From contig AP027133.1 in the NCBI GenBank assembly GCA_027925325.1, positions 240,001-272,000 on the forward strand: a stretch of DNA of 32,000 nt. Reading direction: 5' to 3'. The position numbers and the translations under genes were made by a program. Positions 1 to 19,155 of the stretch are shown here, piece by piece (within the stretch, counting starts at the first letter, position 1; the number at the start of each line of letters is the position of its first letter). The notes below the pieces were generated by a model, which was not told where the DNA came from, ran no database searches, and saw only the letters and a program-made list of their open reading frames with translations. Source of the stretch: Candidatus Saccharimonadota bacterium. GTDB lineage: Bacteria; Bacillota_I; Bacilli_A; Mycoplasmatales; Hepatoplasmataceae.

Positions 1-641
1 TTAATCCTGATTTAGAAGGTGGCTCTACACAGAGTGAAGTTAATCAAAATAATAAAAATTCTCTTGATGATTTAAATTCCGATGTAACTACAATAGATTC
101 TGATATTGATGATATTAATGAAAAAATAGATAGCATTGTTATTACTAAAACGACTCCAAATGTTATTACTGTTGATAGTAATTTAGAAGGTGGAAATACA
201 CAACAAATAGTTAATGAAACTATACAAAGCGATCTTCAAACTATAGTTTCTAATATCTCTGAAATTATTAATGGTTCAACAACAATAAATATTCAAACAT
301 CATCTGTTATTCCTGAGGATGTTAGTTTGGAAGGAGGAATAAATCAAGAAGAAATAAATAAAAATAATACTAGAAAAATTTATGATTTACGTTGTGCAAT
401 TGATGATATTGTACATGGTGTAATTATAATTCCTATTATTACATCAGATGTTAATACGGTTGATGCAATTTTGGAAAATGGTGAAACACAAAGAGAAATT
501 AATGAAAATAAAAGAAAAATGATAAATTTAATAAATGTTAAAATTAGTAATTTAATTATTACAATAAATACTCTTCAAACAAATATTTCATTTTTATCTT
601 CTTGTAGTGATTGTAGACTACCTCAAAAAACAATTGCTTAA
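1..641 (+). CDS. Fibre-like repeat protein, 3' part only (5' end lies left of the window). Paralog of 989..7312 that stops just after the CxxC junction.
   Basis: Frame 3 is open from nt 3 (NPDLEGGSTQSEVNQNNK...) to TAA 639..641. The tracked ORF 327..641 is only its tail, and its 'M' is an internal TTG. It has four LE(G/N)GxxQxE(V/I)N motifs collinear with the last four repeats of the 2107-aa protein. It ends ...FLSSCSDCRLPQKTIA. Confidence 0.8.
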   Translation, partial: NPDLEGGSTQSEVNQNNKNSLDDLNSDVTTIDSDIDDINEKIDSIVITKTTPNVITVDSNLEGGNTQQIVNETIQSDLQTIVSNISEIINGSTTINIQTSSVIPEDVSLEGGINQEEINKNNTRKIYDLRCAIDDIVHGVIIIPIITSDVNTVDAILENGETQREINENKRKMINLINVKISNLIITINTLQTNISFLSSCSDCRLPQKTIA

Positions 642-832
642 AACTTTTATTATAGAATGAATAATATATTTTTATTTTGAAGAATATTTTAGTAGATTAT
701 TTTTGAATTAACTTTAAAAAATAATAAATTGTATTTATTTATAAAAAATAAAAAATATTTTTTATTTTTTATTATAATTTGTTTAAGTTTTAATTATTTA
801 TTATTTAATTTAATTAAATAATTAAAATTAGG

Positions 833-879
833 AAATAGACTATTAAGATATCTTAGAATGATGCCTTGATAGTCTATTT
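833..879. other. Stem-loop candidate in the 347-bp intergenic region: an 11-bp perfect inverted repeat enclosing a 12-bp palindrome
   Basis: AAATAGACTAT (833..843) pairs with ATAGTCTATTT (869..879). The loop begins with the palindrome TAAGATATCTTA (844..855), and a T run follows the stem. It could be a terminator for the upstream gene or an operator for the giant gene. The function is not determinable from sequence. Confidence 0.35.
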
Positions 880-988
880 TTAGAATTAATTGATCATTTA
901 TTAAATTAAAGTAATTTTATTAAATGATTTAAATATAGATGTTGATTAAAAATTTTATTAAAAAATAATAAATGGGAAAAATTAAATT

Positions 989-3900
989 ATGGAAAAGCAA
1001 ACAAAAATAGATTTTGATAAATATAAAATTAATAGCGAAAATAATAAATATAGAATTAATATAAATAATTTAGAGCAAAAATTAAAAAGTTCAACATCTA
1101 TGACTGATTCTGCACACGTACAGACTATAAATCCTGTAACTGAAGGCGGAGGTTTTCAACAAGAAGTTAACGAAAATATTATAGAAGGTCTTTCTTCACT
1201 TATTGGCGGGGAAGTTCCTTTAGATATTAATACATCTGCTGTTAATACTGTTGATGAAACTAATGAAGGTGGATCAACACAAGAAAATGTTAATAAAAAT
1301 AATAAAACAATTATTGATAATTTAAATTCTGATATTACAACAATAAATTCTGATATTGATGATTTAAATGAAAAAATTGATAATTTTTCTATAGATGTAG
1401 TTAGTTCAGAAATTAGTTCTGTTAATTCTTCTTTAGAAGGTGGATCAACACAAGAAGCAGTTAATAAAAATAATAAACAAAATATTGATGATCTAAATAA
1501 TGATATTAATGATCTTATTAACGGAAATACACAAATAAAAATTAATTCTTCATCTATTGATACATTAACTCCTTCTTTAGAAAATGGTGCAACACAAGAA
1601 GAAGTAAATAAAAATAATAAGCAACTTATTGATTCAATTATCAATGGTGAAAATCCAGCAAAAACAATTTCCTCATCTATTGATACAGAAAATTCTTCAT
1701 TAGAAAATGGTACAACACAAGAAGAAGTAAATAAAAACACAAAAGAAACAATTGATAATATTAATGATCAATTAGATAGTTTTGATGAAAGAATCAACTC
1801 TCTTGATGCAGGAATAAATACATCAAAAGTAAATACAACAAATTATTCATTAGAAGGCGGATCAACACAACAAGAAATTAATATAAAAAATAAAATTGTT
1901 TTTGATTCAATAAATTCTGAAATAGAAGATATTAATAGCAAGATTGATTGTATAGATGAAGGAATCGATACTTCTATAATTAATTCTATTGATTCTGTAT
2001 TAGAAGGAGGAGTAACACAAAAAGACATCAATGAAATTAATAAACAAAATATTGATAATATCAATACTATAGTAAATGATATTGATTGCAAAATTGATGA
2101 TCTTGAAATAAAAACTACTACTTCAAATGTTAGTACAGTTGATGGTTTTTTTGAAGGAGGTCCAACACAAAAGGAAGTTAATGAATCTAATAGAGAAAGT
2201 ATCCGTGCATTAAATTCTGAAATTACAACAATAAATTCTGAAATCACCGAACTTAATGATAAAATGGATTGCCTTGATTGTGGATGTGGTTGTGATGACG
2301 GTTGTGGTTGTGATGATGGATGTGATGACGGATGTGGAAATGATACTTCTTCAATTAAAACTGTGGATTCTGCTTTAGAAAATGGTACAACACAAGAAGA
2401 AGTAAACAAAAATAACAAACAAGCAATCGACGATATTATAGATAATGGAATTTCTCCTGGAGATACTTCAACTGTTGGAACTGTTAATTCATCTTTAGAA
2501 AACGGGGTAACACAAGAAGAAGTTAATAAAAATAATAAAGAAGCAATCGATAATTTAAATGATCAAATTTCAGAACTTCCAACTGATATTATTACCTCGA
2601 TTGTTAAAACTGTTGATGAAACTTTAGAAAATGGTACAACACAAGAAGAAGTTAATAGAAAAAATAAACAAGCAATCGATGATTTAAATGATCAATTAGA
2701 TGGATTTTCAACAACAACAATTACCTCATCTGTTACAACTGTTGATGAAATTTTAGAAAATGGTACAACACAAGAAATAGTAAATAAAAACAACAAACAA
2801 GCAATCGATGATATTAATAATCAAATCGATAATTTTGAGTGTGATTCTAATACAGCATCTGTTTCAACTGTTGATGAAACTTTGGAAAATGGCACAACAC
2901 AAGAAGAAGTAAATAAAAACAACAAACAAGCAATTGATGATATTAATGATCAATTAGATGGACTTCCCACAACTGTAATTACTTCAGCTGTTACAGCTGT
3001 TGATGAAACTTTAGAAAATGGTGAAACACAAGATGCGATTAATAAAAACAACAAACAAGCAATTGATGATTTAAATGATCAATTAGAGAATTTTGAATGC
3101 AGTTCCATTACTTCAACTGTTATTACAGTTAATCAAACTTTAGAAAATGGTACAACACAAGAAGAAGTTAATAGAAAAAGCAAGCAGGCAATCGATGATT
3201 TAAACGAACAATTAGAGAATTTTGAATGTAGTTCCATTACTTCAACTGTTACTACAGTTAATTCAGCTTTAGAAAATGGTACAACACAAGATGAAGTTAA
3301 TAGAAAAAATAAACAAGCAATTGATGATATTAATGATCAATTAGATGATATTCCTGGAGAAGTTATAACTTCATCTGTTAAAACAATTGATATAACTTTA
3401 GAAAATGGTGCAACACAAGATGAGGTTAATAGAAACAACAAACAGGCAATCGATAATATTAATGATCAATTAGATGATATCCCAACTGATATTATTACTC
3501 CAATTATTTTTACAGCTAATGAAACTTTAGAAAATGGGGCAACACAAGATGAGGTTAATAGAAACAACAAACAAGCAATTGATGATATTAATGATCAATT
3601 AGATGGACTTCCAACAACTGTAATTACTTCATCTGTTACAGCTGTTGATGAAACTTTAGAAAATGGTCCAACACAAGATGAGATTAATAAAAATAATAAA
3701 CAAGCAATCGATGATTTAAATAACCAATTAGATTCTATTCCTGATGTTATTACTTCATCTGTTACAACAGTTGATCAAGATTTAGAAAATGGCACAACAC
3801 AAGAAGAAGTAAATAAAAACAACAAACAAGCAATCGATGATATTAATAATCAATTAGATGGACTCCCAACAACTGTAATTACTTCATCTGTTACAGCTGT

Positions 3901-6900
3901 TGATGAAGCTTTAGAAAATGGTCCAACACAAGATGAGATTAATAAAAACAATAAACAAGCAATCGATGATTTAAATAACCAATTAGATTCTATTCCTGAT
4001 GTTATTACCTCATCTGTTACAACAGTTGATCAAGATTTAGAAAATGGCACAACACAAGAAGAAGTAAATAAAAACAACAAACAAGCAATCGATAATATTA
4101 ATGATCAATTAGATGCTTTACCAGATGTTATTACTACTTCAATTGTTGATACTGTTGATGAAACTTTAGAAAATGGTGTAACACAAGAAATAGTAAATAA
4201 AAACAACAAACAAGCAATCGATGATATTAATGATCAATTGGATGCTTTACCAGATGTTATTACTACTTCAATTGTTGATACTGCTGATGAAACTTTAGAA
4301 AATGGTACAACACAAGAAATAGTAAATAAAAACAATAAACAAGCAATTGATGATTTAAATGATCAATTAAATGGACTTCCAACAACAACAATTACTTCAT
4401 CTGTTACAACAGTTGATCAAGATTTAGAAAATGGTACAACACAAGAAGAAGTAAATAAAAACACAAAAGAAGATATTGACAATATAAATACTGAAATTAA
4501 TGATATTAATGAAAAAATTGATAATTTTACTGTAAATGCCCTTACTTCAGATATTACAACAGTTGATGAAATTTTAGAAAATGGTACAACACAAGAAATA
4601 GTAAATAAAAACAACAAACAAGCAATCGATGATTTAAATAGTCAATTAGATGGACTTCCAACAACGATAATTACTTCATCTGTTATAACAATTGATCAAG
4701 ATTTAGAAAATGGTACAACACAAGATGAAGTAAATAAAAATACAAAGGAAGATATTGATAATCTAAATCAAGAAGTAAATAATCTTATTGATAATGGAAT
4801 TTCTCCTGGCGATACTTCATCTGTTACAACCGTTGATTCTACTTCAGAAAACGGCGGAACACAAGATGAAGTTAATAGAAATACTAAAAATAATATTGAT
4901 GATTTAAATTCTGGTGTAGATAATATAAATAATCAAATAAATGACATCATTGATGGAACAACTCCTGTAAAAGGCGATACTTCAAATGTTAATTCAATAG
5001 ATAGTAACGCTGAAGGTGGATCAACACAAAAAATAATAAATGAATCTAACAAGCAAAATATTGATAATTTAAATACTGAAATAAGCACTATTTATACTGA
5101 AATTGATGATATCAATGATATATTAGATGGTTTAGGTGGGGGAGTAATCACATCAGAGATTACCACAATTAATACAGCATTAGAAGGTGGAGATACGCAA
5201 CAAGTAGTTAATGAAAATAATCGAAATGATATAAACACAATAGCGTGTGGAATTATGGAAATTATCGATGGAACTACACAAATAAATGTAAAAACTTCAA
5301 CAGTTGTTCCACAAAGTGTTATTTTAGAAGGTGGAATGACTCAGGAATCGATAAATAAAAATAATATTCAAGAAATTTATAATTTAACTCAAGGTATTAA
5401 TGATATTGCAAGTGGAACAATATTAGTTTCAACTAACACTTTAAATATTAATACTATTAGTGCTAATTTAGAGGGTGGAGCAACACAATATGAAGTTAAT
5501 GAAAATAATAAAGAAGATATAAATTTTATAAATAGTATTCTTAGTAATTTAAATGCAACTGTTGCTTCTTTACAAGCAGATATTGAATCATTATCTGATT
5601 GCACAGGTTGCTCATTAACTCCTGCTCCGGTTGCTATTATTTTGAATGTTAATTCAACTAATGTTACAACAAATGGTGCAAGTGATGGTTCAATTTCTTT
5701 TGATGTAACTATTACTAATTTTGCTGGTACATCAACAGCAAGATTAAATCCAGCTGGTGATACAGAAAATATCATTTTAAGTGGAGGATCAAATACTAAT
5801 TTAAGTTTTGATTCATTACCTGCAGGAAATTATAGTATCGAGATTTATGATGATGAAAATTTAATAACTGAAGAAGATAATATCATAATTACTGAGCCTG
5901 CCCCAGCACCAGAAGCGGTATTTGGAACTGTTACTCCAACTGATGCAACAGTAAACGGTTTGAGTGATGGTTCAATCGCTTTTTCTGTAACTATTAGCAA
6001 TTTTGTTGGCGCACCGACAGCAAGATTAAGTCCTACTCTTGATACAGAAAATATCATTTTAAGTGATGGCGAAAACGCCGATTTAAGCTTTGATTCATTA
6101 CCTGCAGGAACTTATAGTATCGAAATTTATGATGATGAATCTTTAATTAATAGTGAAACTGAAATTACAATTAATGAGCCTGCTCCAGCACCAGAGGCGG
6201 TATTTGGAACTGTTACTCCAACCGATGTAACAGTAAATGGTTTGAGTGATGGTTCAATCGCTTTTGCTGTAACTATTAGCAACTTTGTTGGCGCACCGAC
6301 AGCAAGATTAAATCCAGTTGGTGATACAGAAAATATCATTTTAAGTGATGGCGAAAACGCCGATTTAAGCTTTGATTCACTACCTGCAGGAACTTATAGT
6401 ATCGAGATCTATGATGATGAATCTTTAATTAATAGTGAAACTGAAATTACAATTAATGAACCTGCCCCAGCACCAGAAGCGGTATTTGGAACTGTTACTC
6501 CAACTGATGCAACAATAAATGGTTTGAGTGATGGTTCAATCGCTTTTGCTGTAACTATTAGCAACTTTGTTGGCGCACCGACAGCAAGATTAAATCCAGC
6601 TGGTGATACAGAAAATATCATTTTAAGTGATGGTGAAAACGCCGATTTAAGCTTTGATTCACTACCTGCAGGAACTTATAGTATTGAGATCTATGATGAT
6701 GAATCCTTAATTAATAGTGAAACTGAAATTATAATTAATGAACCTATTCAAATAGCAATTATTGATAATATTTGGACATATGGTGTGATAACTGGTAAAG
6801 ATGGAGCATTCGGTTTTGATGTAACTATTAGCAATTTTTTTGGAGTAGGGAAAGCAGTGATAAAAGAACAAGTAGGTTATGTGCCAGATCATTATGATTT

Positions 6901-7312
6901 AATGGATGGATTAAACAGTGATCTAAGATTTTTTTCTTTACCAGTAGGGACTTATACTCTTCAGATTTATGATGATGAAATTTTGATTAATAAACAAGAG
7001 ATTACGGTTGATATATCTGACCCATTAACAACAATTTCAAATGTAAATACAACAGATGTAACAGTAAATGGAGCAAGCGATGGGTCAATAAGTTTTAATG
7101 TATCAATTTATAATTTTAGAGGAGTAGGAACAGCAAGATTAAATCCTGATGTTGGCACAGATAATATTACTTTACAAAATAATACTTTAAATTATAATTT
7201 AAAGTTTGATTTATTGCCAGCAGGAACTTATAGTATTGAGATTTACGATGATAATAATCTAATTGGCCAAGAGGATGGAATTATAATTAATGAACCACTT
7301 TTACTTTATTAG
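989..7312 (+). CDS. Giant (2107 aa) fibre-like repeat protein: conserved N-terminal head, about 32 short repeats, Cys/Asp/Gly knot, CxxC junction, six ~94-aa Ig-like modules
   Basis: Uninterrupted ORF from ATG 989 to TAG 7310..7312. There are no in-frame TGA codons and a single Trp (TGG). The N-terminus MEKQTKIDFDKYKINSENNKY... has no hydrophobic stretch, and the C-terminus ...IIINEPLLLY has no TM segment. Internal periodicity is strong at both protein and DNA level. Confidence 0.93.
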   Translation: MEKQTKIDFDKYKINSENNKYRININNLEQKLKSSTSMTDSAHVQTINPVTEGGGFQQEVNENIIEGLSSLIGGEVPLDINTSAVNTVDETNEGGSTQENVNKNNKTIIDNLNSDITTINSDIDDLNEKIDNFSIDVVSSEISSVNSSLEGGSTQEAVNKNNKQNIDDLNNDINDLINGNTQIKINSSSIDTLTPSLENGATQEEVNKNNKQLIDSIINGENPAKTISSSIDTENSSLENGTTQEEVNKNTKETIDNINDQLDSFDERINSLDAGINTSKVNTTNYSLEGGSTQQEINIKNKIVFDSINSEIEDINSKIDCIDEGIDTSIINSIDSVLEGGVTQKDINEINKQNIDNINTIVNDIDCKIDDLEIKTTTSNVSTVDGFFEGGPTQKEVNESNRESIRALNSEITTINSEITELNDKMDCLDCGCGCDDGCGCDDGCDDGCGNDTSSIKTVDSALENGTTQEEVNKNNKQAIDDIIDNGISPGDTSTVGTVNSSLENGVTQEEVNKNNKEAIDNLNDQISELPTDIITSIVKTVDETLENGTTQEEVNRKNKQAIDDLNDQLDGFSTTTITSSVTTVDEILENGTTQEIVNKNNKQAIDDINNQIDNFECDSNTASVSTVDETLENGTTQEEVNKNNKQAIDDINDQLDGLPTTVITSAVTAVDETLENGETQDAINKNNKQAIDDLNDQLENFECSSITSTVITVNQTLENGTTQEEVNRKSKQAIDDLNEQLENFECSSITSTVTTVNSALENGTTQDEVNRKNKQAIDDINDQLDDIPGEVITSSVKTIDITLENGATQDEVNRNNKQAIDNINDQLDDIPTDIITPIIFTANETLENGATQDEVNRNNKQAIDDINDQLDGLPTTVITSSVTAVDETLENGPTQDEINKNNKQAIDDLNNQLDSIPDVITSSVTTVDQDLENGTTQEEVNKNNKQAIDDINNQLDGLPTTVITSSVTAVDEALENGPTQDEINKNNKQAIDDLNNQLDSIPDVITSSVTTVDQDLENGTTQEEVNKNNKQAIDNINDQLDALPDVITTSIVDTVDETLENGVTQEIVNKNNKQAIDDINDQLDALPDVITTSIVDTADETLENGTTQEIVNKNNKQAIDDLNDQLNGLPTTTITSSVTTVDQDLENGTTQEEVNKNTKEDIDNINTEINDINEKIDNFTVNALTSDITTVDEILENGTTQEIVNKNNKQAIDDLNSQLDGLPTTIITSSVITIDQDLENGTTQDEVNKNTKEDIDNLNQEVNNLIDNGISPGDTSSVTTVDSTSENGGTQDEVNRNTKNNIDDLNSGVDNINNQINDIIDGTTPVKGDTSNVNSIDSNAEGGSTQKIINESNKQNIDNLNTEISTIYTEIDDINDILDGLGGGVITSEITTINTALEGGDTQQVVNENNRNDINTIACGIMEIIDGTTQINVKTSTVVPQSVILEGGMTQESINKNNIQEIYNLTQGINDIASGTILVSTNTLNINTISANLEGGATQYEVNENNKEDINFINSILSNLNATVASLQADIESLSDCTGCSLTPAPVAIILNVNSTNVTTNGASDGSISFDVTITNFAGTSTARLNPAGDTENIILSGGSNTNLSFDSLPAGNYSIEIYDDENLITEEDNIIITEPAPAPEAVFGTVTPTDATVNGLSDGSIAFSVTISNFVGAPTARLSPTLDTENIILSDGENADLSFDSLPAGTYSIEIYDDESLINSETEITINEPAPAPEAVFGTVTPTDVTVNGLSDGSIAFAVTISNFVGAPTARLNPVGDTENIILSDGENADLSFDSLPAGTYSIEIYDDESLINSETEITINEPAPAPEAVFGTVTPTDATINGLSDGSIAFAVTISNFVGAPTARLNPAGDTENIILSDGENADLSFDSLPAGTYSIEIYDDESLINSETEIIINEPIQIAIIDNIWTYGVITGKDGAFGFDVTISNFFGVGKAVIKEQVGYVPDHYDLMDGLNSDLRFFSLPVGTYTLQIYDDEILINKQEITVDISDPLTTISNVNTTDVTVNGASDGSISFNVSIYNFRGVGTARLNPDVGTDNITLQNNTLNYNLKFDLLPAGTYSIEIYDDNNLIGQEDGIIINEPLLLY
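2270..2335 (+). other. Cys/Asp/Gly micro-repeat encoding CLDCGCGCDDGCGCDDGCDDGC (8 Cys in 22 residues)
   Basis: The DNA reads tgc ctt gat tgt gga tgt ggt tgt gat gac ggt tgt ggt tgt gat gat gga tgt gat gac gga tgt. An 18-nt unit (tgtggttgtgatgaYggN) occurs twice, followed by a 12-nt partial unit. The homologous position in the 7366..9588 gene is CLECCC (8335..8352). Confidence 0.9.
3572..4081 (+). repeat. Near-identical 2 x 255-nt (85-aa, two-repeat unit) tandem duplication inside the giant gene
   Basis: 3572..3826 and 3827..4081 encode AIDDIN(D/N)QLDGLPTTVITSSVTAVDE(T/A)LENGPTQDEINKNNKQAIDDLNNQLDSIPDVITSSVTTVDQDLENGTTQEEVNKNNKQ. Only a handful of nucleotide differences are visible. Confidence 0.85.
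5894..6739 (+). repeat. Three near-identical 282-nt (94-aa) tandem units, the core of six Ig-like modules spanning about 5612..7309
   Basis: Units start at 5894, 6176 and 6458 (gagcctgc/gaacctgc...) and the next module starts at 6740. Each encodes EPAPAPEAVFGTVTPTD(A/V)T(V/I)NGLSDGSIAF(S/A)VTISNFVGAPTARL(S/N)P...DTENIILSDGENADLSFDSLPAGTYSIEIYDDESLINSETEI(T/I)IN. The flanking modules 1, 5 and 6 are more divergent. Confidence 0.9.
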
Positions 7313-7365
7313 AAATTAAGTTTTTAGTAAATAATTAATTATTAAAATATTTAGGAAAATTAAAC

Positions 7366-9588
7366 ATGGAAAAAAAAATAAATTTCAATAATAGAAAAAA
7401 TGATTATATAAATAATTTAAATCAATTAAAAACAAAAGTTTCAGTATCATTAACTGATTCGGCACATGTCCAAACTATAAATCCAGTATCTGAAGGAGGT
7501 GGATTTCAACAAGAAGTAAATGAAAATATTATAAAAAATCTTGATTCAATTATTGATGGCAATATTTCAATTACAACAAATACATCTTCTGTTAACACAA
7601 TTGATTATTCTTTGGAAGGTGGAACAACACAAGAAGAAGTTAACAAAACAAATAAACAAAATTTGAATAATTTATCAGATCAAATTGATGATCTTGTTGA
7701 GGGCAATAATCCAGTTAAGACAATTACATCTTTTATTAATACAATTGATTATTCTTTGGAAGGTGGAAAAACACAAGAAGAAATTAATAAAATTAATAAA
7801 GAAAAAATTGATAGTATAAATAATTTAATTGATGCAATTGATGATAAAATTAGTGATTCTAATTTAGAAATTAATACAAATAAAATTAATGCGACAAATA
7901 TTACTTTGGAAGGTGGAACAACACAACAAGAAATTAATATAAGAAATAAATCTAATTTTGAAACAATAAATTCTGAAATAACTGATCTTAATGATAAAAT
8001 TGATGATCTTGATTTTCTTGATGGTGATATTAATACTTCATCAGTAAAAGCAATTGATACTCTTTTAGAAGGAGGAGTATCACAAAAAGAAATAAATGAA
8101 ATCAATAAACAAAACATTGATAACATAAATATTACAATTAGTGATCTTGATTGCAAAATTGATGATATTGAATTAAAAACTGATACTTCTTTTGTTGATA
8201 CTGTAGATGGATTTTTTGAAGGTGGAACAACACAACAAGAAGTTAACGAATCTAATAAAGTAAGTATTCTTAAATTAGATTCTAAGATTATTTCAATAAA
8301 TTCTGAAATTACTGATCTTACTGAAAAAATTGAATGTCTCGAGTGTTGTTGTAATCAAGAGATTGATACTTCACTTGTTAGTACAACAAATTGTGATTTA
8401 GAAGATGGAAATACACAACAAGAAGTAAATCAAAATAATAAAAAAAGTATTGATAATTTAAATAATCAAATAGATACTATTGATGATTCAATTATAGATA
8501 TTAATAGTATTATTAATTTAAATAATCTTGATGATCCTATTCCTCAAACTGGAGTTGCTGATGCAATTAATTATATTTGAGAAAAAGGTCAAATTAATTT
8601 GAATAATTATTATACAAAAGAAGAAGTTGATTTATTATTAAATCAAAAAGAAAAAGATTATAATGATAAATTGAAAAATTTACAAATTCAAATTGATCAT
8701 TTGTTTATTTGTACAAAATGTAGAAGTTTAAATCCAATTGCAATGATTCAAAACATTGTTCCGATCAATGTTACAGCAAATGGTGGTGAAGATGGTTTAA
8801 TCTCTTTTGCTGTAACTATTAGTAATTTTAAAGGTTTACCAACAGCAAGATTAAATCCAGCCGTTAATAATACTAACATTACTTTAAGTGATGGTGAAAA
8901 CGCTGATTTAGTCTTTGATTTATTACCTGCAGGAAATTATAGTATTGAGATTTATGATGATGAAACTTTAATTAATAGTGAAAATGGTATCACAATTAGT
9001 GAACCGGCTCCGTTACCGGAGGCGGTATTTGAAAATGTTATTGCAACTGATGTAACAGAAAATGGCTTAAGTGATGGTTTAATTTCTTTTGATGTAACTA
9101 TTAGCAATTTTGTTGGCACACCGACAGCAAGATTAAATCCAGCTGGTGATACACAAAACATCACTCTAAATGATGGAACAAATATTGATTTATTTTTTTA
9201 TTCTTTACAAGCAGGAAATTATAGTATTGAGATCTATGATGATGAAACTTTCATTAATAGTGAAACTGGAATTACAATTAATGAACCGGCTCCAACAGCA
9301 AAAGTATCATTTGAAAGCATTACTCCAACTGATGTAACGATAAATGACTTAAGTGATGATTCAATCTCTTTTACTGTAAATATTAGTAATTTTGTTGATA
9401 CAGCAATAGCAAGATTAAATCGATCCAGTGATACAGAAAATATCATTTTAAGTGATGGCGAAAAAATTGATTTAAGCTTTGATTCATTACCTGCAGGAAC
9501 TTATAATATTGAGATTTATGATGATGATATTTTAATTAATAAAGAAGAAATAATTATTGATAAAGTGGAACCGCCTTTAATTTCTTAG
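7366..9588 (+). CDS. 740-aa fibre-like repeat protein with the same architecture as the giant gene but a short stalk and three Ig-like modules. It is a single gene under table 4.
   Basis: ORFs 7366..8580 and 8599..9588 are both in frame 1. They are separated only by TGA 8578..8580 (Trp) and gaa aaa ggt caa att aat, with no TAA or TAG between them. The joined sequence reads ...GVADAINYIWEKGQINLNNYYTKEEVDLLL... The N-terminal ~330 aa are collinear with the giant protein. CxxC lies at 8710..8721, followed by three ~94-aa modules. Confidence 0.85.
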
Positions 9589-9609
9589 AAAATATAATTT
9601 TTAATAGAT

Positions 9610-10025
9610 ATTTATTAATTAAAATATTTAGGTAAATTAAATTTTAATAAAAATAATTATAATGATTCAAATGAGTTAAAAATAAAGGCTTCAGTATTAT
9701 TAACTGATTCTTCGCATGTTCAAACTATAAATAAATTATCAGAGGAAGTGGATTTTTGAATAATTAAATGGAAATATTAAAAAATTTAAAAATTCAAATT
9801 GATTATTTATTTTTACAAAATGTGAAAGTTTAAGTCTAATTACAATAATCCAAAACATTTTTTAATGAATATTAAAATAAATTATGACAAATATAATTCA
9901 ATCTTTTTTGATGAAATATTAGTAATTTTAAGACTTACTTATAACAAATTAAATCTACGATGATGATACTTTAATTAATATTTAAAAAGCATCATAATTA
10001 TTTAGTCATTTCCAGCACAAGAATA
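9610..10025 (+). pseudogene. Decayed, internally deleted fossil of a further fibre-protein gene copy
   Basis: The region matches successive landmarks of the 7313..9588 unit in order. First comes the 5' leader (attaattaaaatatttaggtaaattaaa vs attaattattaaaatatttaggaaaattaaac). Next is the N-terminal motif (ttaactgattcttcgcatgttcaaactataaat = LTDSSHVQTIN). Then the CxxC junction (aaaaatttaaaaattcaaattgattatttatttttacaaaatgtgaaagttta vs 8674..8730). One Ig-like module remnant follows (attagtaattttaag..., gatgatgatactttaattaat, ccagcacaagaa). Multiple stops are present and all stalk repeats are lost. Confidence 0.75.
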
Positions 10026-10195
10026 AATATTTGAAAAACTTTAATTAAATTTATAAATAAATATAATAAATTTAAAAATAAAAATGATTTTAAAAGAGAA
10101 TAATTTTATAAATTTAATGAAATTATTTATAATTGAATTATCAATAAATTCTTTATATTAATTATAGGATTTAATTTTGCTATTTTAGTTCGAAT

Positions 10196-12862
<2,667 letters not shown>

Positions 12863-12881
12863 AAAATAAAAGGAAAGATTT

Positions 12882-14648
12882 ATGAGTTCGAAAACAACAA
12901 AGAAATCACAATCCAGTCCTAGTCAATACGGACTTCTTACTTTAATTGCAATTATTGTTGGAACGGTGATTGGATCAGGTATTTATGTAAAAAATGGTTC
13001 ATTAGTAGAGCAATCACAATCAATTATTTTATCAACAATCGGTTGAATAATTGGTGGTCTAATCGTTCTTTCGATGCTTATTGCATTTATTGAAATTATT
13101 TCAATTACTAATAAAAGAAAAGAGCAAGGAACTTTTACGGCTTGAAGTAGATATCTCTGAGGCGAAAAAACAGCAAAATTAATTGGAGGATATTTTTTAT
13201 TTATCTATTTTCCCTTAATAATTGCTTCTGAATCAATTTTTGTCGGAAATGAATTTTATCTTATTTTTTATCCTAATGGAACTGGAGGAAATGAATTAGG
13301 ATGATTTTTCATTATTTCAATTATTGCTTTGCTTGTAATTTTATTTGCTTTTTCAATTACCATTTTTACAACAAAATCCGGAGAAGTTATTCAATCATTT
13401 GGGACAATTACAAAAGTTTTACCATTGTTTTTTTTATTGGTATTATTATTTGTATCATTGGGTTTAAACGGTAATTATGATAATACACTTATAAATGATG
13501 GTGCATTTGATCCTAACTCGGATGTAAACACCGGACTTAGCCAAAATGGTTTTTATCATTTACTACTTATTTTACCGGCTATTTTATTTGCATTTGATGG
13601 ATTTTTATTTGCTGCTTCTCTTTCAACAGAAGCAAAGAGTCCTAAAACTTACAAAAGAGCTTTAATTATTGCAGTATTTTTTATTACCGCAATTTATCTT
13701 TTATTCTCAATTTCTTCTTTTTTATTAGGAGATGGGAATGGATCAGAAAGTAATTATGCAATCAATGGAATTATTGTTTCAATATTTACAAAATTTGGTC
13801 TAGAAACGTTAGGGAATGATTTACAAATAATAATAACTGTTGTTTTAATGATTTCGATTACAACAGCTGTATTTGGGTATTCTCTTTCATCGATGTGAAC
13901 TTTATCTGATAGTTCAAACCTTGATGAAATTGTCGATAAAGATGGTTTGATGATTAGAAGAAGTTATAAGGGAATTCCAACGATGGCAGGAACAAAAATG
14001 CTTATTTATTCTCTTATTGCTCTTCTTGTTATGCGCCTTCTTGATGGGATTTTTATTTTAGTTGTTGCTAATAATCCTTCAACAATAGGGATGACCGATT
14101 ATATGTCAAATTTATTTACATTAACAAATTTTGTTATGTATTCATTTATTATTATCGGTGCAATTTCGAATCGATTTATAAACAAAGTCGAAACAGAAAA
14201 GCAAAAAGGATTTATGATTTGTGCTTTCTTTGCTGTTATTATGATTTTATTATCTGTTTCATCTTTAATTTATTCTTTAATTGATGGTTTATTTATTTCT
14301 AAAGCTGAAGATGCTATTATTTTAAAGACAATATCTATTGTTATTTTTATTGTTGCTATTTTTGCTGTTTATTTATTTAATTATTGACATACTAGAAAAA
14401 AAGTTTCGCAAAATAAAAAATATAAAGAATTTTATAAATATGCTTATAATAATAAAATTCCCTTTTTAGAATATTTAAATGAGCAAAAAAAATCACAGAA
14501 GCAATTAATTAAATATAATAAGACAAAAGAAATGAGCTTTAATCAAAAGGTTTCTGGTCATTTAAAAAAACAGAAAAAATTATGAAAAGAGATGTGAATT
14601 GACTTTAAAAAATGAATTAAGAATATTTTTCATAAAAAAGGTAAATAA
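12882..14648 (+). CDS. Amino acid (APC-superfamily) permease
   Basis: The 588-aa frame-3 ORF joins 12882.., 13329..13898 and 13947..14387 through TGA codons. It has multiple hydrophobic helices, an N-terminal LLTLIAIIVGTVIGSGIY motif typical of APC transporters, and a basic C-terminal tail. GGAAAG lies upstream of the ATG. Confidence 0.8.
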
Positions 14649-14760
14649 AATAAATAATTTTTTAATTTTAAAAAAATAGTTTATTATATAAATTATTGTA
14701 TTAATTTTTTAAGACTGCAGATTAAAAATTGCATTAAATATATAAAATTTGGGGTTTTAA

Positions 14761-17103
14761 TTGATTAATTTGATGAAAAAATTTGTTTTTAATATTTTTT
14801 CTTTATTGATACTTGTATTGGGTCTTTCTATTGGCCAAATTGGGATAAATTTAAATCTAGATAATGATGAAAATTCATTTAAAACATATGATAATAATCA
14901 AAGTGATATTGATCAATTATTAGTTGGTTTAAATCAATCTTTTTATGTTGATCCTAATACTAAAACACTTTATCAAAATGATTATGATTTAACACTTTTG
15001 GCAAGTCCTGATAATTCTAATAATTGGGTTGAAAAAGACTTAAATTCCAATTTATTTATGCAAGATTTTAGCTATAATATAGATACAATTACCTATGATT
15101 TAAATTTTGAATTAGATACAAAAAATAATTGAAATACAAATTTTTATTTGCGTGCTGATGATTATTTATTTATTACTTATTTTACAAGTAAAAGTGATTA
15201 TGATTATCTTTATTTTAAACTTCCAGAGGAGATAAGCACAGTAGAAATTGCTGATTTTGGATATGTAAATAATCAATTTATTGTTTTATTTGCTAATGGC
15301 GATTTTACCTTGGGAGAATCTTTTTTTGAATATGATCAAGATAATAGTTTATATTCTGATTTTAAATATTTAAATGCTGGTAAAATGATTGATTTAGTGA
15401 TGACTGATACTTATTTATTTGCGTTATCAGATCAGGGGGCAATTTATCAATATGGAGTAGATATTTTTAATGTCTTAAGTTTTGAATCAAATTTAGATCA
15501 ACCATTAATTGTATATTCTTATGATCAAAATTTAGATCAAGGATATTATTATACTTATAAATCAAATCGTAATCAAGCACAAAATATTAGTCTAATTAAT
15601 GGTTATGCACTTGAACTATCAATCGAAGTTGACAGTAATTCTTCTAGTGATAATAATTTAATTATTAAAACAGATCGTAATTTTTATCAAATTTATTATT
15701 ATAGAAATTATTTTATTACAGTTGATCAATTTTTTAATGAAGATAACTATAATGTAAATTCTTATAGTATTAAAGAAAATCATTTTAATGATTCAAAACT
15801 TTATGCGATTAATACTTTAAATCCTGATAATTATCTTTATATTACAAGTATTAATGATTTTTCAGAAATTTCATTACAAATAATTGATTTTAATTTATTA
15901 ACTGATATTAAAAATACCTCAATTGATGGTTATTCATCTCCAATTTATCAAAAAGAAATTATTAATTTTGCAGAAACAGAATCACCAGATGTTTATTTAA
16001 TAAAAACAAATGATGATTTGGAATATTTGATTAAATTAATAATAGAAGATCAAAATATTATATATTATGAAGTTACAACTTATAATTGAATTGATAAATT
16101 AGAAGAAAGTAATTTTAGCGGAAAGATACGTTTAGTATCACAAAATCAAACATCAGTGGAATTTGAAGTTGTTGATACTAAAATAAATAGTGACAGATCT
16201 TTAGAAGATGCAAATTTTGCGATTAAAATTAATAATGTATTAGTTGATGATTCTTATTATACTTTAAAATTTGAAGGAATTTATTATGATCAAAATAATA
16301 CTTTAAGTTATCATTTTAAAGTCAATTTTGGATTAGCAAGTTCAAATTCCTTGATTTATTTTGATCAGGTTGAAATGTATAATCAAAGTAACCAATTAAT
16401 TTCAAAAAATACTAATTATATGTCTTATACTGAAATGCAATCAGCAATTATAAAACAAAATAATAGTTTTGAAATTATTGAAAATAGTCAAGATGATAGT
16501 GATACTAGTTTTTACTTTACAATTTCATTTTTAGTAACCGGTGATTATAATTTTGCAAATGATGATGTTGTTTCCTTGAATGCTTTAGAAGATGTGAATG
16601 GAGTTACAAAAAATGTTAATTTAGATACAACTTATGTTAAGTCAATTCAAAATGTAGATTCTCAAACTCCTTTTGGTGAAGTAAATAAGACTTACGAATA
16701 TGAAGTTAATAATTTAGATGAAGAAGCTGTTTATAGTAATTTTAATTTAATTGTATCTCAACCCAATGTTATCGGTGATGTCCAAACAGAAACATTTGCT
16801 TTAAATACAAGTGCTCAATTTATTAGTGGAGGAAATTCAGCTTTTCCAATTACAGCATATATTTTATTAGTGGTATTTATTTTATTATTTGTAGTTATCT
16901 TTGCTTTTTATTATTTAAATTATGTTTATAATAAAAAATCAGCAGAAAAAATTGAATATACTTTTGAAAATTGAAATAATCTTTCTGATCTTGAAATTAA
17001 TAAAAATGATAAGACAATTAAAACAGAAGAGTACAATCCCGGCACTATTCATAGAAAAAATGATCACGATCAAGATATAAAGCAAAAAAACAACAAAAAT
17101 TAA
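14761..17103 (+). CDS. Large (about 780 aa) secreted or tail-anchored surface protein: N-terminal signal-like helix, Tyr/Asn/Asp-rich ectodomain, C-terminal TM helix and a ~55-aa charged tail
   Basis: ORFs 14761..15132, 15148..16089 and 16156..16974 are all in frame 1 and joined by TGA codons. The frame continues to TAA 17101..17103. The N-terminus is (MINL)MKKFVFNIFSLLILVLGLSIGQ with no Cys. The TM helix is FPITAYILLVVFILLFVVIFAFYYL. The start is either TTG 14761 (GGGG 7 nt upstream) or ATG 14773. Confidence 0.8.
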
Positions 17104-17140
17104 AATAATTTATAATTTTATTAAATTTGAATAATAAATT

Positions 17141-17854
17141 ATGCACCGTTTTTTTATCGACCAACAATTTGAAAATAATATAATAAATCCATCAAAAGAA
17201 ATCCTTCATCAATTGATAAAAGTATTAAGAATCAAAAAAAATGAAGATTTTATTGTGATTCAAAATAAAAAGGAATACCTTTGCAATTTAATTAATAATC
17301 AAATAATTTTAAAAAAGAAGCTAATTAAACAAAATTATCAAAAAGAAAATGAATTAATCTTAGTTCAAGGAGTTCCCAAAAGTAATAAATTATCATTTAT
17401 TTTACAAAAATCAACAGAAATTGGTGTTAAAAAAATCTATCTCTGAAAAACAGATTATTCTAATATTTTATTTGCTGATATTTTAAAAAAAGATCAGAGA
17501 TTTAAAAAAATATTAAAAGAGGCAGCAGAGCAATCAAATAGAATTGATTTTCCTGATATTTCTTATATCGATAAATTAGAACAAATAGAATTTAAAGATG
17601 ATGATTTATTATTTGTTTTTTATGAAAAAGCCGATCCAATCAAGGAAAATTTTAAAAAATATTTTTTTAAATTATCTAATTCAAATAAATTTAAAAGAAT
17701 AATTATTTTTATCGGTCCAGAAGGTGGATGAAGCGAAAAAGAAATTAATTTACTAAAGTTAAAAGATGCTAAATTAGTTTCGATGGGAGAAAATATTTTG
17801 CGAACAGAAACAGCAGCTATTGTTGCACTTGCTTTAGTGAAATATTTAATTTAA
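17141..17854 (+). CDS. rsmE: 16S rRNA (uracil1498-N3)-methyltransferase RsmE
   Basis: 237 aa under table 4. It has the MHRFFI N-terminus, GPEGGWSEKE (W = TGA 17729..17731) and MGENILRTETAAIVAL, all typical of the RsmE family. Confidence 0.9.
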
Positions 17855-17859
17855 TAAAT

Positions 17860-19155
17860 ATGAAAAATATAACATTTATAGATGAAGCTAAAATTAAAAT
17901 AAAGGCTGGAAATGGTGGCGATGGAAAACTTGCATTTCATCGAGAAAAATATGTTGAACGAGGAGGCCCTTCGGGTGGCAATGGCGGAAATGGAGGCTCA
18001 ATATATTTTAAGGCAACAACAAATTTAAATACCCTTTTAGGTTTTCGGGGTAAATCAATTTATAAAGCTGAAAATGGACAAAATGGCGATATTAAAAATA
18101 TGACCGGAAGGAATGGAAAAGATTTTTTTATTTTAGTTCCGATTGGAACAGAAATAATTTTAAATGAGCAAAAATTAATTGATCTTACCTATAATAATCA
18201 GATAATTATTGTTGCAAAGGGTGGAAAAGGCGGAAGAGGAAATGCTTCTTTTAAATCTTCTAAAAATAATGCACCTACAATTTATGAAAAAGGCGAACAA
18301 ACAGAATTTATCGAAGTTATTCTAAATTTAAAATTACTCGCTGATGTCGGATTACTGGGATTGCCCAATGCGGGAAAATCAACTTTAATTTCGGTTATTT
18401 CAAATGCAAGACCAAAAATTGATAATTATCAATTTACAACATTAAAACCACAATTAGGTGTTGTAAATTATAAAAATAATAATTTTGTAATTACTGATTT
18501 ACCAGGTTTAATTGCCGGTGCGAGTCAAAATAAAGGGATGGGAATTGAATTTTTAAAACATCTTACAAGAACAAAAATTTTATTGCATTTAATTTCAGCT
18601 GAAGAAAAAGATTTATTAAAAAATTATCGATTAATTAGAAAGGAAATTTCGCTTTATTCAAAAAAATTAGCAAAAACTCCAGAAATTATCGTAATTACAA
18701 AAATGGATATTCTTAATAAACAACAAAAAGAAATAATTAAAAACGCTTTTTCAAACAAAAAAATATTTTTTATTAGCGCAATTAAGCATCAAGGTTTAAA
18801 TTTATTATTACAAGAAATTGTTGATAATCTTAATAATATAAATAAATTAAGACAAATTGAAAATGATAAATTTTTAAATAAGGAAACAGAAGAATTTATT
18901 TATCATAAATATCAAAAAGAATCAATTGAATTTGAGATTGTCAAAAAAGATAATACTTGAATTATTAGTGGTAAATATCCTAAATATTGAGCTAATAGAA
19001 TTCCACTTACAACATATGAAAATTATTTAAGAATTATTAAAAAATTTGAAAATAAAGGAATTATTGCAGAATTAAAAGCAAAAGGTTTAAAAGAGGGTGA
19101 TATTATTACCGTAAAAGATACTTATTTTACGGTTGAATATCAAAATAACTTTTAA
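17860..19155 (+). CDS. obg: GTPase Obg/CgtA
   Basis: 431 aa. It has the Gly-rich Obg fold (AGNGGDGKLAFHREKYVERGGPSGGNGGNGGSIYF), G1 GLPNAGKST, G3 DLPGLI, and a C-terminal extension read through TGA at 18958 and 18988. Confidence 0.95.

What the first reader, a model, noticed from the sequence alone, without database searches (positions are those of the whole stretch)
1..10025. Tandem family of giant fibre-like proteins with no export signal
Four same-strand copies of one gene type fill the first 10 kb: a partial gene, a 2107-aa giant, a 740-aa version and a decayed fossil. They share a conserved N-terminal head ((L/M)TDSAHVQTINPV(T/S)EGGGFQQEVNENII), a long repetitive stalk, Cys knots and C-terminal Ig-like modules. 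This layout looks like an adhesin or a phage-fibre-like filament. Yet neither complete protein has an N-terminal hydrophobic signal, a lipobox or any TM helix, whereas the other surface proteins in this window all have clear signal helices. The proteins are therefore either exported by an unknown route, released in some other way, or form an intracellular or cytoskeletal fibre. I do not recognise the repeat as any named family.
Basis: partly seen in the sequence, partly recalled or inferred. Interest (0 to 1): 0.8.

Follow-up and report, generated by a model that had tools for sequence, protein, structure and literature searches.

The report
Chromosomal phage-fibre gene cluster in Hepatoplasma
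A woodlouse gut symbiont with a tiny genome keeps a tandem set of giant fibre-protein genes related to the fibres of phages infecting the same bacteria, which explains the missing secretion signal; the cluster was already published, but its phage ancestry was not.

Summary
The window is from Candidatus Hepatoplasma scabrum (Mollicutes, genetic code 4). It holds a gene 3' end (3-641), a 2107-aa gene (989-7312), a 740-aa gene (7366-9588) and a decayed copy (9590-10022). None has a hydrophobic segment, a lipobox or room for an upstream extension.

The cluster and its Ig-like modules were already described (Kawato 2024, PMC10928387) as possible adhesins. That paper does not mention signal peptides or phages.

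New here: every building block is shared with fibre proteins on code-4 phage contigs.
- The 38-43-aa stalk unit occurs in only 7 of 1.84 billion representative proteins. One is on a contig with a phi29-type connector (Pfam E=5.7e-12) and a protein-primed polymerase.
- The Ig module also sits at the end of a capsid-like ORF.
- In H. crinochetorum, the sister cluster carries tip domains 55-61% identical to phage fibre tips.

The chromosomal copies differ from the phage ones. They have a 27-aa head core under strong purifying selection that was found on no phage contig, and no phage genes flank them.

Best reading: domesticated phage fibres that assemble in the cytoplasm and are probably used outside the cell. 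The export route and the function are still inferred.

The parts
3..641 (+). Gene A, 3' end only (212 codons plus stop). It has at least 4 stalk units, then a CSDC knot (603-614), then the stop. It has no Ig module.
   Evidence: Translation; unit count; Cys positions.
989..7312 (+). Gene B, 2107 aa: variable leader (aa 1-38), head core, 32 stalk units, Cys clusters, 6 Ig-like modules. It stops right after the last module, so it has no tip domain.
   Evidence: The open frame has P of about 4e-67 by chance.
1103..1183 (+). Head core of B (TDSAHVQTINPVTEGGGFQQEVNENII). It is a specialised first stalk unit under strong purifying selection.
   Evidence: B vs C: 1 aa difference in 27, but 11 nt differences in 81 (10 at third positions). 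Across species: 2-3 aa and 11-13 nt. Found only in chromosomal genes.
1106..5548 (+). Stalk of B: 32 units of TSxVxTVDxxLE(G/N)GxTQxEVNxxNKxxIDxLNxxL. The period is 40-57 aa, and a regular 43-aa core forms the 129-bp x17.5 DNA array at 2464-4740.
   Evidence: Predicted strand-loop-helix per unit (low confidence).
2267..2335 (+). Cys-rich cluster DCLDCGCGCDDGCGCDDGCDDGC inside the stalk of B.
5597..5611 (+). CxxC knot (DCTGC) at the junction of stalk and Ig modules in B. The same knot occurs in A, C, P0002 and P0003.
5621..7294 (+). Six Ig-like beta-sandwich modules of B (aa 1545-2102), including the 282-bp x3.9 DNA array.
   Evidence: AF2 pLDDT 94.8, all-beta. dN/dS 0.2-0.6. 44-49% identical to the C-terminal module of the capsid-like ORF of phage contig L002.
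7366..9588 (+). Gene C, 740 aa, 100% identical to HPPSJP_2250. It has a leader, head core (7453-7533), 7 stalk units (7456-8478), an ECLECCC cluster (8332-8352), a phage-type linker, a CTKC knot (8710-8721) and 3 Ig modules. It has no tip domain.
8530..8640 (+). Segment DDPIPQTGVADAINYIWEKG...YYTKEEVDLLL of C. It includes the only TGA=Trp codon (8578-8580). The segment matches two separate pieces of the phage L002 fibres, which shows a mosaic structure.
   Evidence: tblastn of C 381-455 hits L002 4277-4360 and 2843-3019; alignment.
8728..9567 (+). Three Ig-like modules of C (aa 455-734).
9590..10022 (+). Decayed fourth copy: upstream region plus head, then the Cys knot and Ig remnant. The stalk is deleted and the frames are broken.
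   Evidence: blastn against genes C and B; three-frame translation.

Best explanation
These are chromosomal, domesticated descendants of phage fibre (receptor-binding) proteins.

Architecture of each protein:
- a short variable leader;
- a strongly conserved 27-aa head core;
- a long stalk of 38-43-aa strand-loop-helix units, inferred to form a three-stranded, segmented coiled-coil fibre roughly 150 nm long in B;
- CxxC or Cys-rich knots, inferred to be metal or inter-chain clamps;
- C-terminal Ig-like binding modules.

How it works (inferred). Like virion fibres, these proteins fold and assemble in the cytoplasm, which is why they have no Sec signal, lipobox or TM helix. The head docks the fibre to a conserved cellular partner. 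The distal modules bind a target outside the cell, most likely the isopod brush border or other Hepatoplasma cells. In H. scabrum those modules are Ig arrays. In H. crinochetorum there are also phage-type tip domains. The fibres would leave the cell by a non-Sec route, such as lysis of a subpopulation or vesicles, as shown for the phage-encoded adhesins PblA/PblB of Streptococcus mitis.

The family diversifies through tandem-repeat expansion, gene duplication and decay, and cassette exchange with phages.

Shown: homology to phage fibres, the chromosomal context, selection, and absence of export signals. Inferred: trimeric state, export route, binding target.
For: 1. Stalk unit. A profile of the unit finds only 7 of 1.84e9 representative proteins. 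They are Hepatoplasma giants (P0004 and P0006 are H. vulgare HPAVJP_3240 and HPAVJP_3220) and short fibres on code-4 contigs.
2. Phage contig L005. It carries such a fibre next to a 333-aa ORF matching Pfam Phage_connector GP10 (E=5.7e-12, 46 bits against a cutoff of 25.6). It also has a DNA_pol_B_2 fragment (E=4.5e-4).
3. Phage contig L002. It carries P0003 (5 units, E=2.5e-38). Its 381-aa ORF has a single PDB hit, the phi29 gp16 packaging ATPase 5HD9 (E=0.009). Its first ORF has a weak Phi29_MCP hit (E=0.004) followed by an Ig module 44-49% identical to all window modules (E down to 6e-22).
4. Phage-like contig L007. This is 23.8 kb with about 35 co-directional genes and SSAP_Sak. It carries P0011, which has Ig modules plus a tip.
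5. Cassette exchange:
   - H. crinochetorum P0002 and phage P0003 share 84.5% DNA identity over the 3' 1081 nt, ending at the stop.
   - In the H. crinochetorum cluster L010, three genes share the window's head and 15-17 units but have different tips.
   - One of those tips is 61% identical over 415 aa to phage L007's P0011 (E=4e-173). Another is 55% identical to P0003 (E=6e-126).
6. Domestication:
   - No other phage gene has a remnant anywhere in the 32-kb window. The clusters in H. vulgare and H. crinochetorum are flanked by cellular genes.
   - GC3 is like the host's. The frames are intact (P about 4e-67). dN/dS is 0.2-0.6.
   - The head core is under strong purifying selection. It is absent from all phage loci, from 2.9 M viral contigs and from 241 M metagenome records (positive control).
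7. No export signal.
8. Biology and precedent:
   - Hepatoplasma lives extracellularly, attached to microvilli (PMC5033963).
   - PblA/PblB reach the surface through phage holin and lysin and then re-bind the cell (PMC2920869).
Against: - No experiment shows expression, location or binding.
- The trimeric coiled-coil fold is not demonstrated. The monomer AF2 model of six units has pLDDT 38.
- The PDB hits to a phage tailspike N-terminus (E=0.11) and to reovirus sigma-1 (E=0.066) are not significant.
- The phi29-type assignments for L002 rest on two sub-threshold hits. L004 and L007 have no hallmark structural hit.
- DNA upstream of the window could not be fetched, so a phage module upstream of gene A is not excluded.
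- No holin or lysis gene was found near the cluster.
- B and C lack the tip domains that the phage fibres and the H. crinochetorum copies have, so their binding end is uncertain.
- The direction of transfer for the Ig and tip cassettes (phage to host, or host to phage) is not resolved.
- Hepatoplasma phages are barely represented in the viral collections. The absence of the head from phages is therefore a weak negative.
Confidence: 0.5

Rival explanations
1. The genes still serve phage-host conflict, not host attachment. They could be a chromosomal store of receptor-binding cassettes used by infecting phages. They could also be host-encoded mimics of phage receptor-binding proteins that occupy or mask the phage receptor on Hepatoplasma cells, acting as a decoy or a superinfection barrier.
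For: - The tips of the H. crinochetorum copies are the same domains as phage fibre tips. Those tips presumably bind the Hepatoplasma surface.
- P0002 lies next to AAA_15/AAA_21 and helicase genes of a kind common in defence islands.
- The family turns over rapidly, with a fossil copy and species-specific sets.
Against: - B and C in this window have no tip domain.
- There is no PADLOC family hit beyond coiled-coil noise.
- The chromosomal head is not found on any phage fibre, which argues against use by phage virions.
- A decoy would still need to be exported.
Confidence: 0.2
2. Intracellular cytoskeletal fibre. The proteins would build or stiffen the stalk-like cytoplasmic appendage that Hepatoplasma inserts between microvilli. 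This would resemble HMW2 and other signal-less terminal-organelle proteins of Mycoplasma pneumoniae (that comparison is from my own knowledge).
For: - There is no export signal.
- The organism forms stalks (PMC4536667 and PMC5033963).
- The stalk is long and rich in helices, with weak SMC/Rad50-type coiled-coil noise.
Against: - All modules are shared with phage virion fibres and a capsid-like ORF.
- Ig arrays and receptor-binding-type tips are features of outward-facing proteins.
- Copy number and architecture differ sharply between sister species, and copies decay. That is unusual for a core cytoskeleton.
Confidence: 0.12
3. Decaying remnant of a prophage with no function for the host.
For: - The genes have phage ancestry.
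- There is one fossil copy and a frameshifted gene in H. crinochetorum.
- The upstream flank has not been seen.
Against: - Open frames of 2107 and 740 codons persist in a 25% GC genome (P about 4e-67).
- dN/dS is below 1, and the head is strongly constrained across species.
- Clusters of 10-31 kb are retained in three genomes of only about 0.6 Mb.
- No other phage genes are nearby.
Confidence: 0.06
4. Ordinary Sec-exported or lipoprotein adhesins whose signal peptide was missed or mis-annotated.
For: The paper suggested adhesins. Ig arrays are common in adhesins.
Against: - No hydrophobic stretch exists anywhere (KD19 at most 1.2), and there is no early Cys.
- Stops lie 1 and 9 codons upstream of the ATGs.
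- The same hydrophilic starts are seen in H. crinochetorum and H. vulgare.
- Neighbouring surface proteins have obvious signals.
Confidence: 0.02

Closest known systems
Giant repetitive tandem ORFs of Hepatoplasmataceae (Kawato et al. 2024, PMC10928387, Fig. 5; HPPSJP_2240/2250)
   Same: These are the same genes. The paper reports the tandem cluster and the repeats, predicts an Ig-like fold by ColabFold, and suggests adhesins.
   Different: The paper does not mention the missing signal peptide, phages or viruses. New here: the link to phage fibres, the selected head core, the tip cassettes shared with phages, and the homology of the stalk unit to the H. vulgare giants.
Fibre proteins of code-4 phi29-like and related phage contigs (P0003 on L002, P0005 on L005, P0008 on L004, P0011 on L007)
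   Same: - They share the stalk unit (E=2.5e-38 and 9.5e-26).
- They share the CxxC knot, the YYTKxEVD linker and the Ig module.
- In H. crinochetorum the tips are shared too.
   Different: - The phage proteins are short (240-713 aa) and sit among connector, ATPase or capsid-like genes.
- They have their own N-terminus (TDNEYIV.YNINNI.YLY).
- The window proteins are up to 2107 aa, lie in a chromosomal setting, carry a different selected head, and lack a tip.
PblA/PblB of Streptococcus mitis phage SM1 (PMC2920869)
   Same: These are phage structural proteins without a classical export route that act as bacterial adhesins. They are released when the cell is permeabilised and then re-bind the cell surface.
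   Different: - No sequence relation was tested or seen.
- PblA/PblB are encoded in an intact prophage with its holin and lysin. No prophage or lysis genes are seen here.
- Mollicutes have no cell wall to re-bind.
phi29 gp12 neck appendage, gp8.5 head fibre, and gp8 capsid protein with a C-terminal Ig-like domain (my own knowledge of phi29)
   Same: - The fibres on L002 sit downstream of the connector-like ORF, as gp12 does.
- A capsid-like ORF ends in an Ig-like module, as gp8 does.
   Different: There is no detectable sequence or fold match of the window proteins to these phi29 proteins.
Segmented trimeric coiled-coil fibres (T4 fibritin, reovirus sigma-1, trimeric autotransporter stalks)
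   Same: The resemblance is in how they would work: short helical segments with heptad-spaced core positions (N22, N25, I29, L32, L36) alternate with non-helical inserts. Sigma-1 is the best PDB hit of the family profile, but it is not significant.
   Different: No significant similarity was found. The oligomeric state is untested.
SprB repeat (PF13573) and other Ig-like beta-sandwich repeats
   Same: - The NG.SDGSI-type motif is similar.
- The distant hit P0013 carries PF13573.
- The top BFVD Foldseek hit is a phage 'SprB repeat' protein (TMq 0.58).
   Different: - There is no direct Pfam SprB hit at E up to 1.
- The Foldseek E-value of 0.02 is not significant.
- Pfam sees only partial matches to DUF2141, TcfC, Y_Y_Y and fn3_3.
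HMW2-type terminal-organelle proteins of Mycoplasma pneumoniae (my own knowledge)
   Same: They are giant, signal-less, helix-rich proteins in a Mollicute that has a polar attachment structure.
   Different: There is no sequence similarity. HMW2 has no Ig arrays and no relation to phages.

Membership tests
Fibre / receptor-binding proteins of code-4 (Mollicute) phages (unnamed LEGGxTQ-unit family) | Shares the stalk unit with proteins encoded beside phage hallmark genes | tested here: met
   Profile search; L005 connector at E=5.7e-12 and DNA_pol_B_2; L002 ATPase and MCP hints.
Fibre / receptor-binding proteins of code-4 (Mollicute) phages (unnamed LEGGxTQ-unit family) | Encoded within a phage structural gene module | tested here: not met
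   No remnant of any other ORF from L002, L004, L005, L007 or L009 is found in the 32-kb window. Downstream lie IleRS and other housekeeping genes. DNA upstream of position 1 was not seen.
Fibre / receptor-binding proteins of code-4 (Mollicute) phages (unnamed LEGGxTQ-unit family) | N-terminal virion-attachment segment like that of P0003 and the L002 463-aa fibre | tested here: not met
   The chromosomal copies have a different leader and head. The head pattern is absent from all phage loci and from the viral collection.
Fibre / receptor-binding proteins of code-4 (Mollicute) phages (unnamed LEGGxTQ-unit family) | C-terminal tip (receptor-binding) domain | tested here: not met
   B and C stop right after the last Ig module. 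The tips are present in the H. crinochetorum paralogues.
Fibre / receptor-binding proteins of code-4 (Mollicute) phages (unnamed LEGGxTQ-unit family) | Homotrimeric fibre fold | not testable with these tools
   Only monomer AF2 is available. The six-unit model has pLDDT 38.
Sec-exported or lipoprotein surface adhesins of Mollicutes | N-terminal signal peptide, lipobox Cys or TM anchor | tested here: not met
   KD profiles; Cys positions; upstream stops; contrast with neighbouring proteins. SignalP was not available.
Phage-encoded adhesins of the PblA/PblB type | Phage structural-protein ancestry and no classical export signal | tested here: met
Phage-encoded adhesins of the PblA/PblB type | Encoded in a prophage whose holin and lysin provide release | tested here: not met
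   No prophage or lysis genes are in the window.
Phage-encoded adhesins of the PblA/PblB type | Demonstrated binding to host tissue | not testable with these tools
   This needs experiments.
SprB repeat (Pfam PF13573) | Significant match of the module to the family model | tested here: inconclusive
   No Pfam hit at E up to 1. There is an indirect link through P0013 (E=2.6e-5) and a non-significant Foldseek hit.
Anti-phage defence systems (PADLOC) | Match to a known defence protein model | tested here: not met
   Only coiled-coil-type LmuB/ZorA noise, with no stretch passing threshold.
Mycoplasma terminal-organelle cytoskeleton (HMW2-like) | Sequence similarity or shared domains | tested here: not met
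   No such hits in Pfam or NCBIfam. The exhaustive unit search returns only Hepatoplasma and phage-contig proteins.

The most novel reading that the evidence does not exclude
A wall-less symbiont with a minimal genome has turned phage receptor-binding fibres into a cellular organelle of its own. A selected, chromosome-specific head docks giant fibres to a cellular partner. Interchangeable phage-derived distal cassettes then either coat the cell with mimics of phage receptor-binding proteins (a receptor-masking defence of a new kind) or tether it to the host brush border. Export would be by a route that needs no signal peptide. Either outcome would be a new mode of surface display or defence in Mollicutes.
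Probability: 0.15. Interest if true: 0.85.

Novelty: new variant of a known kind. Interest (0 to 1): 0.55.

Why it matters
Hepatoplasma genomes are only about 0.6 Mb, yet they devote 10-31 kb to these genes. What the genes do is therefore central to how the symbiont lives on the isopod gut epithelium.

Recognising them as phage-fibre derivatives has three consequences:
- It explains the missing export signal.
- It turns a vague 'adhesin?' label into testable alternatives: attachment fibre, anti-phage decoy or stalk skeleton.
- It identifies the first candidate phages of this uncultured lineage, namely the code-4, phi29-like contigs.

The work also defines a previously unnamed fibre repeat family, and a 27-aa head motif that should mark the docking partner.

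Tried and rejected
- Exact look-ups of B and of P0001 for flanking DNA found nothing on record. The region upstream of gene A therefore stays unseen.
- tblastn of the L002 ATPase-like ORF against 50,697 phage records gave no match.
- PHROGs scans of L002 and L007 ORFs gave no hits. PHROGs hits on B (phrog_34320, a head-maturation protease family, an SbcC-like family) are repeat or coiled-coil noise and were not used.
- Family scans of viral contigs and metagenome contigs found no relatives. The genome-contig scan found only H. crinochetorum Ps.
- The AF2 model of six stalk units was too poor (pLDDT 38) for Foldseek, so only its secondary-structure pattern is used.
- Foldseek of the Ig module against PDB and BFVD gave only generic Ig/FN3 matches, best E=0.02. 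There was no specific match to the phi29 gp8 domain.
- The promoter/terminator scan was uninformative, with 78 sites found against 82 expected.
- The last word-indexed protein search, using B's first 110 aa, returned nothing. It did not even return P0001, so that negative is void. It was replaced by DNA-pattern scans.
- The origin of the runs ERR14127550, SRR18465929, ERR14657232 and of JGI 3300037460 could not be found in the literature.
- I recalled a phage 'tail collar'-like C-terminus in the H. vulgare giants. Pfam does not support it, so I make no such claim.
- dN/dS pairs involving modules 1919 and 2011 were discarded because an indel puts them out of register.

Full report
IDENTITY OF THE WINDOW
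The DNA has about 25% GC. It reads properly only with genetic code 4: ORFs of at least 100 aa sum to 13,250 aa under table 4 against 8,613 aa under table 11, and IleRS, a permease, Obg, RNase J and TrpRS become whole. Protein C is 100% identical to HPPSJP_2250 of Candidatus Hepatoplasma scabrum. This organism is an extracellular Mollicute symbiont of the woodlouse Porcellio scaber.

THE OBSERVATION
All four same-strand elements exist at the stated places.
- Gene A is a 3' end at 3-641.
- Gene B is 989-7312 (2107 aa).
- Gene C is 7366-9588 (740 aa, with one TGA=Trp at codon 405).
- A decayed copy lies at 9590-10022. It keeps C's upstream region and head (71% over 224 nt) and its Cys knot plus first Ig module (74% over 218 nt). 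It has lost the stalk and is frameshifted.

The stalk is made of a unit with the consensus TSxVxTVDxxLE(G/N)GxTQxEVNxxNKxxIDxLNxxL. B has 32 copies, C has 7 and the visible part of A has at least 4. Across 50 units, including those of the relatives, E13, Q18 and N22 never change. At DNA level there is a 129-bp x17.5 array and two 282-bp arrays. B has six Ig-like modules and C has three. A ends directly after its CSDC knot and has none, which corrects the finding.

No export signal is present. No segment approaches signal or TM hydrophobicity, since the highest 19-residue Kyte-Doolittle mean is 1.2. The first Cys is at residue 321 in B and 263 in C. Stop codons lie 1 and 9 codons upstream of the ATGs. 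Four other surface proteins in the window have clear signal helices and C-terminal anchors.

An open frame of 2107 codons has a probability of about 4e-67 at this composition, and the longest ORF in 300 shuffles was 152 codons. Correctly registered Ig-module pairs give dN/dS of 0.2-0.6. The genes are therefore real and under constraint.

WHAT WAS ALREADY KNOWN
Kawato et al. [quoted passage not shown] They predict Ig-like folds for HPPSJP_2240 and propose adhesins. They do not mention signal peptides, secretion of these proteins, phages or viruses.

NO NAMED FAMILY
Pfam sees only partial matches of the LPAGTYSIEIYDD end of the module to DUF2141, TcfC, Y_Y_Y and fn3_3. PHROGs, NCBIfam and PADLOC give only repeat or coiled-coil noise. 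PDB sequence searches find nothing significant.

The Ig module folds confidently (pLDDT 94.8), but it matches only generic Ig/FN3 sandwiches. The top viral hit is a phage 'SprB repeat' protein at a non-significant E of 0.02. A monomer model of six stalk units is poor (pLDDT 38). It does show a regular pattern per unit: a strand of about 9 residues, a loop holding LENGTTQ, and a helix of about 19 residues. The helix carries heptad-spaced core positions N22, N25, I29, L32 and L36. I infer a segmented, probably trimeric, coiled-coil fibre, but this is not shown.

THE PHAGE CONNECTION
A profile of the 38-aa unit, scored against all 1.84 billion representative proteins, returns only seven proteins. 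They are:
- P0001, which is protein C itself.
- The H. vulgare giants HPAVJP_3240 (4617 aa) and HPAVJP_3220 (2838 aa). They lie in a tandem cluster of three giants flanked by housekeeping genes.
- P0003, P0005 and P0008, and one 99-aa fragment.

P0003, P0005 and P0008 lie on contigs of about 10 kb (L002, L005, L004). These contigs have 23-28% GC and need code 4.

L005 is a phi29-type podophage.
- Its 333-aa ORF matches Pfam Phage_connector (GP10) at E=5.7e-12, 46 bits against a cutoff of 25.6.
- Its last ORF starts like a protein-primed family-B polymerase (DNA_pol_B_2, E=4.5e-4).
- The fibre ORF lies just upstream of the connector.

L002 consists of tightly packed co-directional ORFs.
- The 381-aa ORF has exactly one PDB hit, the phi29 gp16 packaging ATPase 5HD9 (E=0.009).
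- The truncated first ORF has a weak Phi29_MCP hit (E=0.004).
- That first ORF ends in an Ig module 44-49% identical to every module in the window (E down to 6e-22).
- Two fibre genes (463 aa and P0003) follow a connector-sized ORF. This is where phi29 has its neck appendage gene (my own knowledge of phi29).

A search with B's Ig region adds P0011. It lies on L007, a 23.8-kb code-4 contig with about 35 co-directional genes and an SSAP_Sak recombinase. L007 shares a second fibre and a small TM protein with L002.

CASSETTE EXCHANGE
The lone chromosomal gene P0002 of H. crinochetorum Ps and phage P0003 share 84.5% DNA identity over the last 1081 nt. The match ends exactly at the stop codon. Amino-acid identity is about 92% in the tip but only 30-60% in the stalk.

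The H. crinochetorum Tokyo2021 cluster (L010) holds three fibre genes. All have the window's head and 15-17 stalk units, but their tips differ.
- One tip is 55% identical to P0003's tip (E=6e-126).
- One is 61% identical over 415 aa to the tip of phage L007's P0011 (E=4e-173), with 75.5% DNA identity over 969 nt running to the stop.
- The third tip is of a different type.

Protein C also contains a segment (DDPIP...AINYIWEKG...YYTKEEVDLLL) that matches two separate pieces of the L002 fibres. A conserved N-terminal part combined with swapped distal cassettes is the usual organisation of phage receptor-binding proteins (established knowledge).

WHAT SETS THE CHROMOSOMAL COPIES APART
- No other ORF of any of the phage-like contigs has a remnant anywhere in the 32-kb window.
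- GC3 (0.06-0.10) is within the range of the housekeeping neighbours.
- The 27-aa head core TDSAHVQT(I/V)NPVxEGGGFQQEVNENI is itself a modified stalk unit. It is almost invariant in five genes of two species. B and C differ at 11 of 81 nucleotides (10 at third positions) but at 1 of 27 residues. Across species there are 11-13 nucleotide changes and 2-3 residue changes. The next 60 residues differ at 31-39 positions. This is purifying selection and not recent gene conversion.
- A back-translated head pattern finds the two window genes and the three L010 genes. It finds nothing in the six phage-like loci, in 2.9 million viral contigs or in 241 million metagenome records. That is a weak negative, because these phages are barely sampled.
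- The phage fibres carry a different N-terminus.
- B and C stop right after their last Ig module and have no tip.

INTERPRETATION
The missing export signal is what one expects of proteins descended from virion fibres, which assemble in the cytoplasm. The following all point to domestication and not to a dying prophage:
- a selected, chromosome-specific head;
- the lack of neighbouring phage genes;
- host-like codon composition;
- intact giant frames;
- retention of 10-31 kb of such genes in three genomes of about 0.6 Mb.

Hepatoplasma lives outside host cells and attaches to the microvillar border through stalk-like appendages (PMC4536667 and PMC5033963). An extracellular binding role is therefore the most likely one. 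Release would be by a non-Sec route. The documented precedent is PblA/PblB of S. mitis phage SM1, which reach the surface only when phage holin and lysin permeabilise the cell and which then re-attach (PMC2920869).

This last step is inferred. Three rivals remain open:
- An anti-phage or phage-serving role, suggested by the shared tips and by the defence-like neighbours of P0002.
- An intracellular stalk skeleton.
- Much less likely, inert remnants.

A missed signal peptide is excluded by the sequence.

VERDICT
The phage-fibre ancestry, the selected head and the shared tip cassettes are new, and they account for the 'no export signal' puzzle. I classify this as a new variant of a known kind (domesticated phage fibre or adhesin genes). 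It involves a previously unnamed repeat family and an unresolved route to the cell surface.

Noticed in passing
window 24777-30728 (minus strand): There is a tandem pair of RCC1-like beta-propeller surface proteins. One is intact (974 aa, with signal and C-terminal TM). The second is split into two ORFs, 29580-30728 and 27764-29641, apparently by a frameshift near 29600. The paper already lists ten RCC1-like proteins in this genome.
   Followed up: partly
window 1843-5091 (minus strand): Under code 4, a 1082-codon open frame runs antisense to the stalk of gene B. That frame has only 21 TAA/TAG stops across the whole gene. It is most likely a by-product of the repetitive, codon-biased sense strand and not a gene.
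   Followed up: partly
L001 1250-9785 (H. crinochetorum Ps, upstream of P0002): The lone fibre gene P0002 sits next to an AAA_15/AAA_21 ATPase, a 1351-aa AAA_11/AAA_12 helicase with an MTES_1575 domain, and a 302-aa ORF. This set resembles a defence island.
   Followed up: no
L007 8382-11911: The 520-aa ORF ends halfway through an Ig module, and the module continues in the next ORF (P0011) in another frame. This could be an assembly error, a programmed frameshift or a recent disruption. It is unclear whether the 520-aa part is a capsid or a fibre protein.
   Followed up: no
L005 8127-9104: The phi29-like code-4 phage contig encodes a 309-aa protein. It has an N-terminal hydrophobic segment and a long collagen-like G-x-y / GTDGSD repeat.
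   Followed up: no
L006 (H. vulgare) 1-18517; proteins P0004 and P0006: The H. vulgare giants interleave the LEGGxxQ unit with a second repeat (TDDSETNPTEGINPWKTAIDENTDDI...FPQLSLNGEIITSWPSG). They also carry inserted 90-aa segments ending in AVPKLYVDN. The paper could not model these units.
   Followed up: no
L010 1-1091 (H. crinochetorum Tokyo2021): A Phage_integrase-type recombinase lies next to a type I restriction-modification specificity (Methylase_S) gene, about 5 kb upstream of the fibre cluster. This suggests a phase-variable type I RM system.
   Followed up: no
L010 9416-9516: The first fibre gene of the H. crinochetorum cluster is split by a frameshift inside its Ig array. It gives ORFs of 1100 and 866 codons that overlap by 100 nt. 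This is either a pseudogene in the making or a slippage site in the 282-bp repeat.
   Followed up: no
window 1-10025 vs 10026-32000: The fibre genes have higher overall GC (0.26-0.29) than their neighbours (0.21-0.26). The difference comes entirely from codon positions 1 and 2. GC3 is as low as elsewhere, so it reflects amino-acid composition and not foreign origin.
   Followed up: yes
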